This document shows positions 49,228 through 55,346 of a stretch of DNA of 64,000 bases, piece after piece. Every line of letters begins with the position of its first letter. Positions within the stretch are counted from its first letter, which is position 1. Location of the stretch: the NCBI RefSeq assembly GCF_009914755.1, contig NC_060926.1. One strand, 5' to 3'. This stretch comes from the human T2T-CHM13v2.0 reference genome, Homo sapiens. The position numbers and the translations under genes were made by a program. A model generated the notes under the pieces. It saw only the letters and a program-made list of their open reading frames with translations. It searched no databases and was not told where the DNA came from.

Positions 49228-52200
49228 GACGAGACTCCATCTCAAAAAAAATAAAAAAAAAACAGCCTGGCCAACATGATGAAACCCCGTCTCTACTAAA
49301 TGTATAAAAAATTATCTAGGCGTGGTGGCACACGCCAGTAATCCCAGCTACTCGGGAGGCCCAGGCAGGAGGATCGCTTTAACCAGGGAGGTGGAGGTTG
49401 AAGCGAACCAAGATTGCACCACCTCATTCCAGCCTGGGCAACAGGGTGAGACTCAATCTCAGAAAAAGAAAAAAAAAAAGGCCAGCCTGGCCAACACGGT
49501 GAAACCCCATCTCTACTAAATATGAAAAGAAATTAGCTGGGCGTGGTGGCACATGAATGTAATCCCAGCTACTCGGGAGGCCCAGGCAGGAGGATAGCTT
49601 GAACCCTGGGGGTGGAGGCTACAGCGAGCCAAGATTGCACCACTGCACTCCAGCCTGGGCAACAGGGCGAGACTCCATCTCAGAAAAAATAAAATAAAAT
49701 AGACCAGCCTGGCCAACAGGGTGAAACCCCATCTCTACAAAATATACAGAAAAATTAGCTGGGGGTGGTGGCACACACCTGTAATCCCAGCTACTCGGGA
49801 GGCCCAGGAAGGAGGATCGCTTGAATCAGGGAGGTGGAGGCTGCAGCGAGCCAAGATTGCACCACTGCACTCCAGCCTGGGCAACAGAGTGAGACTCCAT
49901 CTGAAAAAACAGAAGCATTCCAGCCTGGCCAATAGAGCGAGACTCCATCTCAAAAAAAAAAAAAAAAAAAAAAAAAACACCAGCCTGGCCAACATGGTGA
50001 AACCCCGTCTCTTCTAAATATACAAAAAAAATAGGGCCAGGCGTGGTGGCTCATGCCTGTAATCCCAGCACCTTGGGAGGCCGAGGTGGGTGGATCACGA
50101 GGTCATGAGATCGAGACCAGCCTGACCAACATGGTGAAACCCCGTCTCTACTAAAAATAGAAAAATTAGCTGGATGTGGTGGCACATGCCTGTAATCCCT
50201 GCTACTCCGGAGGCTGAGGCAGGAGAATTGCTTGAACCTAGGAAGCGGAGGTTGCAGTGAGCCGAGATGGCGCCACTGTACTCCACGGTGGTGTCAGAGT
50301 GATACTACATCTCAAAAAAAAAAAAAATAGCTGGGTTTGATGGCACACACCTGTAATACCAGGTACTCGGGAGGCCCAGGCAGGATGATCACTTGAACCC
50401 GGGAGGGGGTGGTTGCCGTGAACCAAGATTGTACCACTGCACTCCAGCCTGGGCAACAGGGCGAGACTCCATCTCAGGAAAAAAAAAAAAAAAAGACCAG
50501 CCTGGCCAACATGGTGAAACCCCGTCTCTACTAAATATAAAAAAAATTACCTGGATGTGGTGGCACATGCCTGTGATCCCAGCTGCTCGGGAGGCCCAGG
50601 AAGGAGGATCGCTTGAACCTGGGAGGTGGAGGCTGCAGCGAGCCAAGATTGCACCACTGCACTCCACCCTGGATAACAGAATTAGACTCTATATGAAAAA
50701 AAAGAAGAACTCCAGCCAGGGCAATAGAGTGAGACTCCATCTCAAAAAAAAAAAAAAAAAAAAAAAAAGACCAGCCTGGCCAACATGGTGAAACCCCGTC
50801 TCTACTAAATACACAAAAAAATTAGCTGTGCGTGGTGGCACACGCCTGTAATCCCAGCTACTCGGGAGGCCTAGGCAGGAGGATCGCTTGAACCCGGGAG
50901 GTGGAGGTTGCAGCGAACCAAGATTGCACCACTGCACTCCAGCCTGGGCAACAGAGCGAGACTCCATCTCAGGAAAAAAAAAAAATATCAGCCTGGCTAA
51001 CATGGTGAAACCCCGTCTCTACTAAATATACAAAAAAAATTAGCTGGGCGTGGTGGCACACGCCTGTAATCCCAGCTACCCGGGAGGCCCAGGCAAGAAG
51101 ATCTCTTGAACCCAGAAGGTATATGCTGCAGCGAGCCAAGATTGTCCCACCGCACTTCCGCCTGGGCAACAGAGCGAGACTCCGTCTCAGAAAAAAAAAA
51201 AAAAAAAAAAAAACAAGAACAGGTTGGCCAACATGGTAAAACCATGTCTCTACTAAATATACAAAAAAATTAGTTAGGCATGGTGGCACACGCCTGTAAT
51301 CCCAGCTACTCGGAAGGCCCAGGCAGGAGGATCGCTTGAACCCGGGAGGTGGAGGCTGCAGCAAACCAAGATTACACCACTGCACTCCAGCCTGGGCAAC
51401 AGGGCGAGACTCCATCTCAGAAAAAAAAAAAAAGACCAGCCTGGCCAACATGGTGACACCCCGTCTCTAGTAAATATATAAAAAAATTAGCTGGGCATGG
51501 TGGCACACGGCTGTAATCCCAGCTACTCGGGAGCCCCAGGCAGGAGGATCGCTTGAACCTGGGAGGTGGAGGCTGCAGCGAGCCAAGATAGCACCACTGA
51601 ACTCCAGCCTGGGCAACAGGGTGAGACTCCATCTCAGAAAAGAGAGAAAAAAATTAAAAAAAGACCAGCTTGGCCGACATGGTGAAACCTCATCTCTACT
51701 AAAAATACAAAAGTATTAGCTGGCCGTGGTGGCACACGCCTGTAATCCCAGCTACTCGGGAGGCCCAGGAAGGAGGATTGCTTGAACCTGGGAGTTTGAG
51801 GCTGCAGCGAGCCAAAATTGCACCACTGCACTCCACCCGAGTGAGACTCCATCTGAAAAAAAGAACTCCAGCCACGGCAATATAGCGAGACTCAACCTCA
51901 AAAAAAAAAAAAAAAAAAAAAAAAACACCAGCCTGGCCAATATGGTGAACCCCGTGTCTACTAAATATACAAAAAAATTAGCTGGGTGTCACGGCACACG
52001 CCTGTAATACCAGCTACTTGGTAGGCACAGGCAGGAGGATCGCTTGAACCCGGGAGGTAGAGGCTGCAGTGAGCCAAGATTGCACCACTGCACTCCAGCC
52101 TGGGCAACAGGGTGAGACTCCATCTCAGAAAAAAAAAAAAAACAAAAAGAGCAGCCTGGCCAACATGGTGAAACCCCGTCAATACTAAATATACAAAGAA

Positions 52201-55200: not shown

Positions 55201-55346
55201 CTAAATATACAAAAAAAATAGATGGGCGTGGTGGCACTCATCTCTAATCCCAGCTACTCGGGAGGCCAACGCAGGAGGATCACTTGAACACAGGAGGTGG
55301 AGGCTGCAGCTAGCCAAGTTTGCACCATTGCACTCCAGCCTGGCAA
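49228..55346 (+). repeat. Head-to-tail array of ~24 5'-truncated Alu-derived units (Alu-derived satellite)
   Basis: Each ~215-280 bp unit runs from 'ccagcctggccaacatggtgaaacc' through the right arm to poly(A). Units share non-consensus changes (ggaggcccagg, ggaggatcgc, gctgcagcgagccaagattgcacc, ctaaatatac). Confidence 0.95.
50035..50327 (+). mobile_element. Full-length AluS (Sc/Sg-like) inserted into one array unit
   Basis: Complete ggccaggcgtggtggctca... element lacking the array's shared variants. It is flanked by aaaaaaatag on both sides, and the host unit resumes at 'ctgggt' (50331). Confidence 0.88.

What the first reader, a model, noticed from the sequence alone, without database searches (positions are those of the whole stretch)
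49228..55346. Alu-derived satellite: ~24 tandem promoter-less Alu units nested within the AGCC array
Seen: ~24 same-orientation units (counted by aac..ggtgaaacc-like motifs from ~49273 to ~55178, excluding the inserted Alu), with no spacers or TSDs. All start at the same internal Alu point and share private substitutions. Two unit types occur: simple (~220 bp), and with a duplicated 3' terminus ('ctgaaaaaaagaagcactccagcc...gagactccatctc', ~270 bp). Sub-lineages recur, e.g. 'caaagaaattagc...cacacga(a/t)t' at ~52190, 53370, 53610, 54710, 54980, and 'aggttggcc' at ~51220, 52596, 53857, 54131. Known: units lack the left-arm A box and most of the B box, so they should not be Pol III-transcribed or independently retrotransposed. 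Inference: DNA-level amplification of one Alu fragment into a satellite, which standard annotation would split into many separate Alus. This is the best candidate for an under-described element here, but I cannot confirm it is unannotated.
Basis: partly seen in the sequence, partly recalled or inferred. Interest (0 to 1): 0.8.

Follow-up and report, generated by a model that had tools for sequence, protein, structure and literature searches.

The report
Old Alu-fragment satellite inside CAGC array
One piece of an Alu element was copied head-to-tail about two dozen times at the DNA level to form a small, old satellite inside a CAGC simple-repeat array, a known way for satellites to arise; the same block also lies in copies near the centromeres of chromosomes 2, 15 and 22.

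Summary
Window 49228-55346 holds 24 same-strand Alu-fragment units without spacers or per-unit target-site duplications. There are 13 short units (217-237 bp), 10 long units (243-284 bp, with a duplicated ~48-bp 3' module) and 1 truncated unit. One ordinary full-length Alu sits in unit 4.

The units share private substitutions. In a tree they form one group against ordinary Alus (support 100/94). They average 87% pairwise identity with no higher-order pattern, so this was an old burst of DNA-level amplification.

The array is not unique. The same CAGC | Alu array | CAGC block, with identical junctions, lies at:
- chr2:91.70 Mb, about 30 units;
- chr2:89.76 and 89.94 Mb, 10 units each;
- chr2:90.85-90.91 Mb, eight 10-unit copies, six of them a ~6.9-kb tandem repeat 99.8-100% identical;
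- chr22:17.24 Mb, 5 units.
chr15 carries two shorter copies with a different left junction.

A clean U20/U21 recombinant unit and a ~1.45-kb unit-number difference between 98%-identical copies show unequal exchange at work.

The flanking array is already listed as diverged (CAGC)n (Warburton 2008). Alu-derived tandem repeats are a known class. I found no name for this array, but I could not see the T2T repeat tables. Verdict: a new member of a known kind, of moderate interest.

The parts
45407..49227 (+). Left flanking diverged (CAGC)n / CCAAGCCAG array, 3.8 kb. It begins directly after an AT-rich 24-26-bp minisatellite (44815-45406), with no Alu piece at its left edge.
   Evidence: TRF periods 9/17/26; sequence; GC 0.67 and strong strand skew.
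49228..49262 (+). Leading partial unit: the 3' end of an Alu unit (GACGAGACTCCATCTC plus A-tail). It starts at the unit position where U24 stops.
   Evidence: The left junction ..GCCATGC|CAGGACGAGACTCC is identical in 12 of 12 chr2 copies and differs by one base (G for A in CAGG(A/G)CGAG) on chr22.
49263..55346 (+). Array of 24 head-to-tail Alu-fragment units. Each runs from CAGCCTGGCCAACATGG (end of the Alu left monomer) through the linker and right monomer to the A-tail. Unit starts: 49263, 49483, 49705, 49981, 50498, 50772, 50989, 51220, 51437, 51666, 51929, 52152, 52369, 52594, 52837, 53106, 53334, 53571, 53855, 54130, 54406, 54672, 54940, 55168.
50035..50330 (+). Ordinary full-length Alu retrotransposed into the A-rich linker of U04. 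It is flanked by the target-site duplication AAAAAAAATAG and is the only element here with A-box-like and B-box-like motifs. It is present in all 12 chr2 copies. It is absent from the chr22 copy and from the parts of the array kept on chr15.
   Evidence: It is 12.2% diverged from the majority consensus of 31 ordinary Alus, whose median is 12.6%.
49705..49980 (+). U03, an example of the long unit type: the 3' module CACTCCAGCC..GAGACTCCATCT is present twice, about 48 bp apart. The other long units are U05, U10, U14, U15 and U18-U22.
   Evidence: TRF sub-periods 45-49 bp.
52594..52836 (+). U14, a long unit with a window-specific 17-bp deletion at 52675. The chr2:91.7 Mb copy is intact at this point.
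50756..51196 (+). The U05/U06-U07 interval. Here the window copy lacks 952 + 461 + 40 bp (about 6 units) that the 98%-identical copy at chr2:91.7 Mb has, and aligned identity falls to 85-93%.
55168..55346 (+). U24, the last unit, cut at ..CACTCCAGCCTGGCAA where the right CAGC array begins. It is the most diverged unit (10.6% from the array consensus).
   Evidence: The right junction is identical in all 12 chr2 copies and on chr22.
55347..64000 (+). Right flanking diverged (CAGC)n array. It runs on to chr2:87,443,500, about 30 kb in all, and has its own ~2.2-kb higher-order period.
   Evidence: Listed by Warburton 2008 as CAGC, 2p11.2, periods 4/9/26, 25.7 kb.

Best explanation
The array is a transposon-derived satellite. 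A roughly 200-bp piece of one aged AluS-type element, together with its A-tail, became a direct repeat. The piece runs from GACCAGCC at the end of the left monomer to the 3' end of the element. Unequal homologous exchange between misaligned units then amplified it at the DNA level to a few dozen copies, in a burst tens of millions of years ago.

Early in that process one unit duplicated its ~48-bp 3' module. This long form spread and recombined with short forms. An ordinary Alu later inserted into unit 4.

The array sits inside a (CAGC)n array, to which it is joined at the Alu motif CCAGCCTGG. The whole CAGC | Alu array | CAGC block was later copied by pericentromeric segmental duplication on chr2. 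Unit numbers changed by further unequal exchange, giving about 30, 24 and 10 units; a 5-unit copy with the same junctions lies on chr22. At chr2:90.85 Mb the block was itself amplified very recently as a ~6.9-kb macrosatellite.

What is shown:
- tandem structure;
- common descent of the units;
- absence of retrotransposition hallmarks per unit;
- intra-unit recombinants;
- paralogous copies with shared junctions.

What is inferred:
- how the first direct repeat formed. The likely route is an Alu inserting into an Alu at the TTCGAGA|CC site, which makes the same polyA-GACCAGCC junction elsewhere in the genome;
- the absolute ages;
- that the array has no sequence-specific function.
For: Structure: 24 units in one orientation, all starting at the same Alu position, with no spacers or target-site duplications.

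Common descent: private substitutions are shared by 21-24 of 24 units and by 0-3 of 37 other Alu fragments. In an IQ-TREE tree, 62 of 62 array units plus one PAR1 unit lie on one side of a branch with support 100/94, against 33 ordinary Alus and the other PAR1 unit. The exact 31-mer carrying two private states occurs only in the chr2 copies and at PAR1 on X and Y. There are 39 exact places in the genome and none for the reversed control.

Old burst: mean pairwise identity is 87.0% (range 81.5-94.4%) and flat across lags 1-12. Units lie 7.3% from their own consensus, 6.5% outside CpG. The array consensus differs from the ordinary-Alu consensus at 15 of 198 columns.

Unequal exchange:
- Unit 8 of the 10-unit form follows U20 at 7 of the first 8 informative columns (3-94). 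It follows U21 at 15 consecutive columns from 124 onward, 13 of them in unique sequence (124-213). The A-tail columns are uninformative.
- The window lacks about 1.45 kb of units that the 98.6-98.9%-identical chr2:91.7 Mb copy has.
- All four combinations of 5' markers with the long or short 3' state occur.

Single origin of the block: both junctions are identical in 12 chr2 copies, and on chr22 apart from one base at the left junction.

Distances between copies: K2P 0.007-0.027 between the window and the other chr2 copies, and 0-0.0018 among the six ~6.9-kb repeats.

Seeding route: the polyA-GACCAGC(C/T)T junction is also produced at chr19:13.917 Mb by an Alu inserted into an Alu with target-site duplication AAGACCAGCTT. 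It occurs at chr14:17.22 Mb as well.

Known class: passages of PMC3389668 describe Alu-derived tandem repeats, in-situ duplication and the earlier work of Jurka and Gentles 2006.
Against: The founding event is erased. The 5' end of the array is cut by the CAGC array, so no full-length founder or leftover left monomer remains.

The flat identity profile and star-like tree fit a single burst. Stepwise unequal crossing-over does not specifically predict that pattern, and rolling-circle amplification predicts it equally well.

The array begins and ends at one and the same point of the unit. Integration of a circle would also give this.

Unit 6 of the 10-unit form is not a clean U05/U18 hybrid as I expected. 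Its states run 5888555588885585555588x588885x5x, so the large U05-U18 difference is not explained by one simple crossover.

Ages rest on assumed substitution rates, and no other primate genome was available.
Confidence: 0.85

Rival explanations
1. Rolling-circle or extrachromosomal-circle origin. A circle made of one or a few Alu units was replicated into a concatemer. It integrated into a pre-existing (CAGC)n array by a single crossover at the short homology CCAGCC. Unequal exchange only modified the array afterwards.
For: The array starts (..|CAGGACGAGACTCC) and ends (..CCAGCCTGGCAA|) at adjacent positions of the unit, a circular permutation with one break point. The identity matrix is star-like with no lag structure, as after one burst. 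CAGC arrays exist without Alu units, for example 10 kb at chr16:32.68 Mb, so the CAGC array can exist on its own. Junctions between CAGC arrays and Alu 3' regions recur at different points: the chr15 left junction, and the chr22 and chr16:34.82 Mb junctions with an ordinary Alu.
Against: Tandem duplication of a [CAGC + Alu array] block produces the same permutation, and that process is directly seen at chr2:90.85 Mb. No empty site was found: the best matches to the two CAGC flanks score only at the background level of the array, about 200 of 310. Nothing here observes a circle.
Confidence: 0.1
2. Serial retrotransposition: many independent 5'-truncated Alu copies inserted one after another into each other's A-tails.
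For: A-tails are favoured Alu targets. Single polyA-GACCAGCC junctions arise this way elsewhere, at chr19:13.917 Mb. The U04 insert shows the locus was hit at least once.
Against: All 23 junctions fall at the same Alu position within 3 nt and none has its own target-site duplication. The units share private states that are rare or absent in other Alus, and they form one group. Long units share an identical internal module duplication. Recombinant units exist.
Confidence: 0.02
3. The array is kept for a function, for example as a regulatory element, an RNA gene or a chromatin boundary, and is not neutral repeat DNA.
For: RefSeq lists enhancer features at 46191-47196 and 56172-56677 in the flanking CAGC arrays (hub table, not tested here). 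The block has persisted in several copies.
Against: Units decay independently (87% identity). Unit number varies freely between copies, about 30, 24, 10 and 5. No Rfam family reaches its gathering score in 49000-55600. None of the units has an A- or B-box motif. No gene model covers the array (hub table).
Confidence: 0.03

Closest known systems
Alu-derived minisatellites and tandem repeats (Jurka and Gentles 2006, recalled and cited within PMC3389668; Ahmed and Liang 2012, PMC3389668, passages read)
   Same: Tandem repeats whose unit is a piece of an Alu, expanded in place and not by transposition, with units closest to each other. The 45-49-bp duplicated 3' module of the long units resembles the 52-bp AluJo 3'-region repeat (consensus positions 226-278, 17 copies) shown in that paper.
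   Different: The unit here is about two thirds of an Alu plus its tail (217-284 bp), with 24 to about 30 copies. The paper reports mean repeat numbers of 2.3-2.4. Units here are 87% identical, below the paper's 95% filter, so this array would not be in its set. This array is also multi-locus and nested in another array.
Composite macrosatellites of the T2T repeat catalogue (Hoyt et al., bioRxiv 10.1101/2021.07.12.451456, sections 5 and 6 read)
   Same: At chr2:90.85-90.89 Mb the unit [CAGC array + 10-unit Alu array with an embedded Alu] repeats six times at about 6.9 kb. It therefore fits the paper's definition: three or more repeat types forming a unit that is arrayed in tandem, probably by unequal crossing-over, with single copies spread by segmental duplication.
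   Different: None of the composites named in the text I read (5SRNA_Comp, ACRO_Comp, LSAU-BETA, TELO_Comp, LMtRNA) matches. The full list (Table S2) and a new 'AluJb fragment' entry could not be inspected.
Diverged (CAGC)n arrays of 2p11.2 and 22q11 (Warburton et al. 2008, PMC2588610, passages read)
   Same: The flanking arrays have the same periods (4, 9, 17, 26) and the same chromosome bands. The 25.7-kb array at 2p11.2 corresponds to the right-hand array here.
   Different: The word 'Alu' does not occur in that paper's main text, so the nested Alu array is not described there. Further CAGC arrays on chr15 and chr16 are seen here.
Transposon-to-satellite conversion in general (review PMC6947457, search listing only)
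   Same: A mobile-element fragment becomes the monomer of a tandem array.
   Different: This is a primate SINE example with a datable history: an inserted Alu and paralogous copies.

Membership tests
Transposon-derived tandem repeat (Alu-derived satellite) | The repeat unit is homologous to a transposable element | tested here: met
   Units align over their whole length with the right two thirds of ordinary Alus from the window. They are on average 13.8% diverged from the majority consensus of 31 such Alus.
Transposon-derived tandem repeat (Alu-derived satellite) | Head-to-tail copies without spacers, all in the same phase | tested here: met
   24 units; all 23 junctions lie within 3 nt of the same Alu position.
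Transposon-derived tandem repeat (Alu-derived satellite) | Units descend from one another, not from separate insertions | tested here: met
   One side of a branch with support 100/94; private states; the diagnostic 31-mer is found exactly only in this family and at PAR1.
Transposon-derived tandem repeat as filtered by Ahmed and Liang 2012 | At least 95% similarity among units of an array | tested here: not met
   Mean identity 87.0%, maximum 94.4%. The filter is quoted in PMC3389668 section 2.2.
Independently retrotransposed Alu copies | Each copy is flanked by its own target-site duplication | tested here: not met
   None at the 23 unit junctions. Only the U04 insert has one, AAAAAAAATAG.
Independently retrotransposed Alu copies | A source-type element with internal Pol III A and B boxes | tested here: not met
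   A-box-like and B-box-like motifs (recalled) occur once each in the region, at 50047 and 50109, both in the inserted Alu; none of the 24 units has either.
Composite macrosatellite in the sense of Hoyt et al. | A unit of three or more repeat types arrayed in tandem in at least one place | tested here: met
   Six units about 6.8-7.0 kb apart at chr2:90,848,987-90,886,250, K2P 0-0.0018, plus two more copies 7.8 kb apart. This lies outside the window.
Composite macrosatellite in the sense of Hoyt et al. | Listed in the published composite track or Table S2 | not testable with these tools
   The supplements of the preprint are closed and the journal version is not held.
Diverged (CAGC)n array (flanks only) | Periods 4/9/26 at 2p11.2 | tested here: met
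   TRF periods 4, 9, 17 and 26; table of PMC2588610.

The most novel reading that the evidence does not exclude
The whole ~40-kb block, CAGC arrays included, may be Alu-born. On this reading the CAGC satellite was seeded from, and keeps recombining with, the Alu 3' motif CCAGCCTGG; I recall this motif being described as chi-like. Four different CAGC-Alu junctions fall within a stretch of about 30 bp of the Alu 3' end. The CAGC-Alu composite would then act as a recombination-prone module that helped spread pericentromeric duplications to chr2, chr15, chr16 and chr22. It would still be expanding in humans as a ~6.9-kb macrosatellite that is probably variable in copy number. The two-unit tandem in PAR1 would be the surviving founder or an early offshoot.
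Probability: 0.15. Interest if true: 0.6.

Novelty: new member of a known kind. Interest (0 to 1): 0.38.

Why it matters
The array is a clear, datable human example of a SINE fragment turning into a satellite. Several stages can be read from one genome:
- the founder's accumulated changes;
- the amplification burst;
- the later Alu insertion;
- changes in unit number between duplicated copies;
- a very recent macrosatellite amplification.

Annotation that calls each unit a separate Alu overcounts Alu insertions (about 170 units genome-wide by my count) and hides an array that probably varies in copy number. It does not change what is known about how satellites arise.

Tried and rejected
I replaced it with shared k-mer diagonals, which show that both arrays are built from related ~2.2-kb higher-order blocks but do not settle the order of events.
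- Search for an 'empty site', that is, the left CAGC flank followed directly by the right flank. Motif scans were swamped by generic matches. Local alignments gave only background scores. The result is inconclusive.
- The idea that unit 6 of the 10-unit form is a simple U05/U18 crossover product is rejected, because its pattern of states is mixed.
- The first FastTree placed three 'outgroups' among the units. These rows turned out to be fragments that leave Alu sequence after 30-100 bp. A fourth intruder in the next tree was an ordinary Alu with an internal 46-bp duplication and a long branch. The rows dropped before the final tree are listed in the full report.
- Regex scoring of private states in the chr15, chr22 and PAR1 units was partly faulty, because the CCCAG pattern also hits AATCCCAGC. 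Only the zero counts for CTGAGG are used.
- The Rfam scan found no family.
- Literature searches for a name for this array found none. Two papers that use the phrases 'tandemly repeated Alu' or 'tandem Alu repeats' do so only in passing.
- The earlier-findings tool was not open.
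Full report

Yes. Reading 48600-56200 shows an AGCC/CAGC-type array that gives way at 49228 to Alu-like sequence and resumes at 55347. 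Tandem Repeats Finder reports overlapping arrays of period 217-285 bp, with scores up to 2230, across 49225-55343. It also reports the flanking array with periods 4, 9, 17 and 26 from 45407 to 49227 and from 55348 to the window end.

A 24-nt anchor (up to 5 mismatches) finds 24 plus-strand unit starts from 49263 to 55168. One more hit, at 50118, lies in a full-length Alu. The rest of the window has 13 scattered hits on both strands.

After cutting at the anchors there are three kinds of unit:
- 13 short units of 217-237 bp;
- 10 long units of 243-284 bp that carry the 3' module CACTCCAGCC..GAGACTCCATCT twice;
- a last unit (U24, 179 bp) cut off by the CAGC array.

Every internal junction is an A-tail followed within 3 nt by CAGCCTGGCC. 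There are no spacers and no per-unit target-site duplications.

The one true insertion is a full-length Alu at 50035-50330, in the A-rich linker of U04. It is flanked by AAAAAAAATAG on both sides.

**2. Common descent of the units**

I compared the units with 37 other Alu-anchor fragments taken from the window and fetched loci. Four to six of the 37 were later judged invalid rows (see below). The units share states that are rare or absent in those fragments:

| Change | Units | Other Alu fragments |
|---|---|---|
| TAAAAATAC>TAAATATAC | 23 of 24 | 1 of 37 |
| CTGAGG>CCCAGG (two positions) | 22 and 21 of 24 | 3 and 2 of 37 |
| GAGAATCG>GAGGATCG | 24 of 24 | 2 of 37 |
| GCAGTGAG>GCAGCGAG | 22 of 24 | 0 of 37 |

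The units also share decayed CpG sites.

A first FastTree put 64 of 66 array pieces on one side of a branch with support 0.998, together with three 'outgroups'. Inspection showed that those three rows, and one more, leave Alu sequence after 30-100 bp.

For the final IQ-TREE trees I dropped eight rows:
- L026_2941+, W_33432-, W_6641+ and W_4268+, which are not homologous over the stretch used;
- P91_7rcu04, which is a chimera of the head of U04 and the head of the insert;
- P15_19u07, which is a unit cut after about 60 bp;
- L017_6651+, which is the same element as another row;
- L016_1039-, dropped for the last tree only. It is an ordinary Alu with an internal 46-bp duplication and a long branch of 0.32.

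With L016_1039- kept, all 62 array units plus that row and PAR1_u2 lie on one side of a branch with support 96/96.

Without it, the 62 units lie on one side of a branch with support 100/94. They comprise 24 from the window, 27 from chr2:91.7 Mb, 6 from chr15 and 5 from chr22, and PAR1_u2 groups with them. On the other side are 33 ordinary Alus and PAR1_u1.

The exact 31-mer that carries CCCAGG and GGAGGATCG occurs at 39 places. All are in the chr2 copies except one in PAR1 on each of X and Y. The reversed control pattern had no hit. Only the first 100 of the 150 hits allowing one mismatch were listed.

**3. Age and mode of amplification**

Pairwise identity over the 200 core columns averages 87.0% (range 81.5-94.4%). 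It is flat at 86.5-88.2% across lags 1-12, so the array has no internal higher-order repeat and no sign of recent homogenisation.

Units lie on average 7.3% from the array consensus, or 6.5% outside CpG. The array consensus itself differs from the majority consensus of 31 ordinary Alus at 15 of 198 columns. The founder had therefore aged before it was amplified, and the copies have aged about as much again since.

At commonly used rates of roughly 0.15-0.25% per million years (recalled), this puts the burst some tens of millions of years back. That figure is an inference.

The Alu inserted in U04 is as diverged as a typical ordinary Alu here: 12.2% against a median of 12.6%. It occurs in one unit only.

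**4. Evidence for unequal exchange**

- The long or short 3' state occurs in all four combinations with the 5' markers AGGTTGGCC and CAAAGAAATTAGC. The tree of unit cores does not follow the long/short division either.
- Unit 8 of the 10-unit form is a recombinant. Of the 31 columns where U20 and U21 differ, it follows U20 at 7 of the first 8 (columns 3-94). It then follows U21 at 15 consecutive columns, 13 of them in unique sequence (124-213). The remaining columns lie in the A-tail and are uninformative. This is a one-unit deletion with its crossover inside a unit.
- Against the chr2:91.7 Mb copy, which is 97.4-98.9% identical elsewhere, the window lacks 952 + 461 + 40 bp between U05 and U07. 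Aligned identity in that interval falls to 85-93%. U14 has a window-specific 17-bp deletion.
- I expected unit 6 of the 10-unit form to be a U05/U18 hybrid. It is not, since its states are mixed. How the U05-U18 stretch was lost is therefore not resolved.

**5. The array is a family, not one locus**

A search of the window's own assembly with U19-U20 and the fetched stretches show the same block elsewhere.

| Place | Strand | Units | Notes |
|---|---|---|---|
| chr2:91.699-91.707 Mb | minus | about 30 (7584 bp against 6125 bp) | K2P 0.016-0.018 to the window |
| chr2:89.758-89.760 Mb | plus | 10 | K2P 0.0048 to the 89.941 copy |
| chr2:89.941-89.943 Mb | minus | 10 | inverted partner of the 89.758 copy |
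| chr2:90.849-90.906 Mb | plus | eight 10-unit copies | six start 6.8-7.0 kb apart; two more, 7.8 kb apart, lie 1.3-1.4% from the six |
| chr22:17.238-17.239 Mb | plus | 5 | same junctions, apart from one base at the left junction |
| chr15:18.003-18.005 and 19.561-19.563 Mb | minus and plus | 6 full units plus one truncated | different left junction; right end in unique DNA |

The six copies at 90.849-90.886 Mb differ from each other by K2P 0-0.0018.

Both junctions (..GCCATGC|CAGGACGAGACTCC and ..CCAGCCTGGCAA|ACCAAGCC) are identical in all 12 chr2 copies, and on chr22 apart from one base at the left junction. The block therefore formed once.

The 10-unit form reads U01-U04 (with the insert), an unplaced unit, U19, the U20/U21 recombinant, then U22-U24.

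The flanks outside the CAGC arrays are also paralogous. Alus left of the window's array pair one-to-one with Alus at chr2:91.71 Mb and chr2:90.84 Mb in the trees. The copies are therefore segmental duplications.

**6. The flanking array**

The right array runs to chr2:87,443,500, about 30 kb in all, and ends in unique sequence. It has an internal period of about 2.2 kb, and the left array shares long k-mers with several of its blocks.

Warburton et al. 2008 list 'CAGC, 2p11.2, periods 4, 9, 26, 25,730 bp' and a 22q11.1 array. They describe both as diverged (CAGC)n as identified by RepeatMasker. The word Alu does not occur in that paper's main text (PMC2588610, passages read).

A 33-nt pattern based on the array's repeat motif, with up to one mismatch, hits 92 places: 60 on the forward strand, 32 on the reverse, and none for the control. 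All are on chr2, chr15 or chr16. A 10-kb stretch at chr16:32.68 Mb is pure CAGC array without Alu units.

At chr22:17.235 Mb and chr16:34.82 Mb the CAGC array starts inside the 3' end of an ordinary Alu (..GCAGCCTGGGAGAGAC|AAC.AAGCCAGCC). That Alu lacks the private states.

Counting the chr2 junction pair and the chr15 junction, four CAGC-Alu junction types lie within about 30 bp of the Alu 3' end, around CCAGCCTGG.

**7. How the array came to lie in the CAGC array**

The array begins and ends at adjacent positions of the unit. Two histories fit this.
- A CAGC array interrupted an Alu array. Unequal exchange between units on its two sides then duplicated [CAGC + Alu array]. That same process is visible at chr2:90.85 Mb.
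- A circular or rolling-circle product of units integrated into a CAGC array.

A search for an intact empty site gave only background matches, so the question stays open. In the window the outer edges of both CAGC arrays show no Alu pieces. This is a point for the second history, or for later loss of those pieces.

**8. How the first repeat may have formed (inference)**

The junction 'A-tail then GACCAGC(C/T)T' is produced elsewhere by an Alu inserting into an older Alu at ..TTTAAGA|CCAGC... An example is chr19:13.917 Mb, with target-site duplication AAGACCAGCTT. It also occurs at chr14:17.22 Mb, where one pair of target-site duplications (ATTAATGAATGATT) encloses a full Alu followed by a truncated one.

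Such a structure contains two direct copies of Alu positions ~92-300 plus a tail. Unequal exchange between them yields exactly the unit seen here.

**9. Function**

There is no sign of a function:
- the A-box-like and B-box-like motifs occur once each, both in the inserted Alu (motifs recalled);
- no Rfam family was found;
- the hub table shows no gene model over the array;
- unit number varies freely and the units decay independently.

**10. Comparison with what is known, and novelty**

Alu-derived tandem repeats are an established class (PMC3389668, passages read, which cites Jurka and Gentles 2006). That paper reports mean repeat numbers of 2.3-2.4. It shows a 17-copy 52-bp AluJo 3'-region repeat, and its set required at least 95% identity among units. 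The present array would fail that filter.

The T2T repeat paper defines composites in a way that the ~6.9-kb repeat at chr2:90.85 Mb meets. It also mentions a new 'AluJb fragment' entry (preprint sections 3, 5 and 6 read). Its Table S2 and Dfam submissions were not visible, and the journal version is not held.

Six full-text searches found no paper that names or describes this array.

I therefore file it as a new member of a known kind. An existing catalogue entry may cover it.

Noticed in passing
outside the window: G000 chr2:90,848,987-90,906,600 (L019-L025): The [CAGC array + 10-unit Alu array] block is itself repeated. Six copies lie about 6.8-7.0 kb apart and differ by K2P 0-0.0018. Two more copies, 7.8 kb apart, lie 1.3-1.4% from the six. 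This is a very young macrosatellite and is likely to vary in copy number between people.
   Followed up: partly
outside the window: L027, chrX PAR1 about 769,700-770,200 (same 31-mer on chrY at 789,001): Two tandem units start at GACCAGCC/GACCTGCC, next to an antisense Alu piece. The second unit carries the array's private states and falls inside the array group in the tree. The first carries only TAAATATAC and has a (CAA)n tail like that of U17. This could be a founder-like locus or an offshoot.
   Followed up: partly
L018 1700-2120 (chr22:17.2347 Mb) and L032 (chr16:34.82 Mb, reverse strand): The CAGC array begins inside the 3' end of an ordinary Alu at CAGCCTGGG. That Alu is itself fused to an antisense Alu 3' piece. 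The boundary is the same on both chromosomes, so the two places are paralogous.
   Followed up: partly
window 55347-64000 and on to chr2:87,443,500: The right CAGC array has an internal higher-order period of about 2.2 kb, with further strong diagonals at about 4.45 and 10.6 kb.
   Followed up: partly
window 46191-47196 and 56172-56677: The RefSeq 'enhancer' features in the hub table all lie inside the CAGC arrays, not in the Alu array.
   Followed up: no
window 7133-16157: A 9-kb degenerate simple-repeat array (TGAAA / AGATGAAATGATG; periods 5, 13, 18 and 23; about 67-70% matches).
   Followed up: no
window 35666-36448: A 159-bp unit repeated 4.9 times (316 bp x 2.5; 84-86% matches). From memory the unit looks like part of an L1 element, which would make it another small transposon-derived tandem repeat. 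This was not tested.
   Followed up: no
window 42361-43158, 28177-28452 and 44815-45406: Three further tandem repeats: 246/276 bp x 2-3; 40 bp x 7 (94% matches); and an AT-rich 24-26-bp minisatellite that abuts the left CAGC array.
   Followed up: no
L030, chr14:17.2197-17.2204 Mb: A full-length Alu followed by an A-tail and a 5'-truncated Alu starting at GACCAGCC. The pair is enclosed by one pair of target-site duplications (ATTAATGAATGATT). The two Alus differ in sequence, so this is not a simple local duplication.
   Followed up: no
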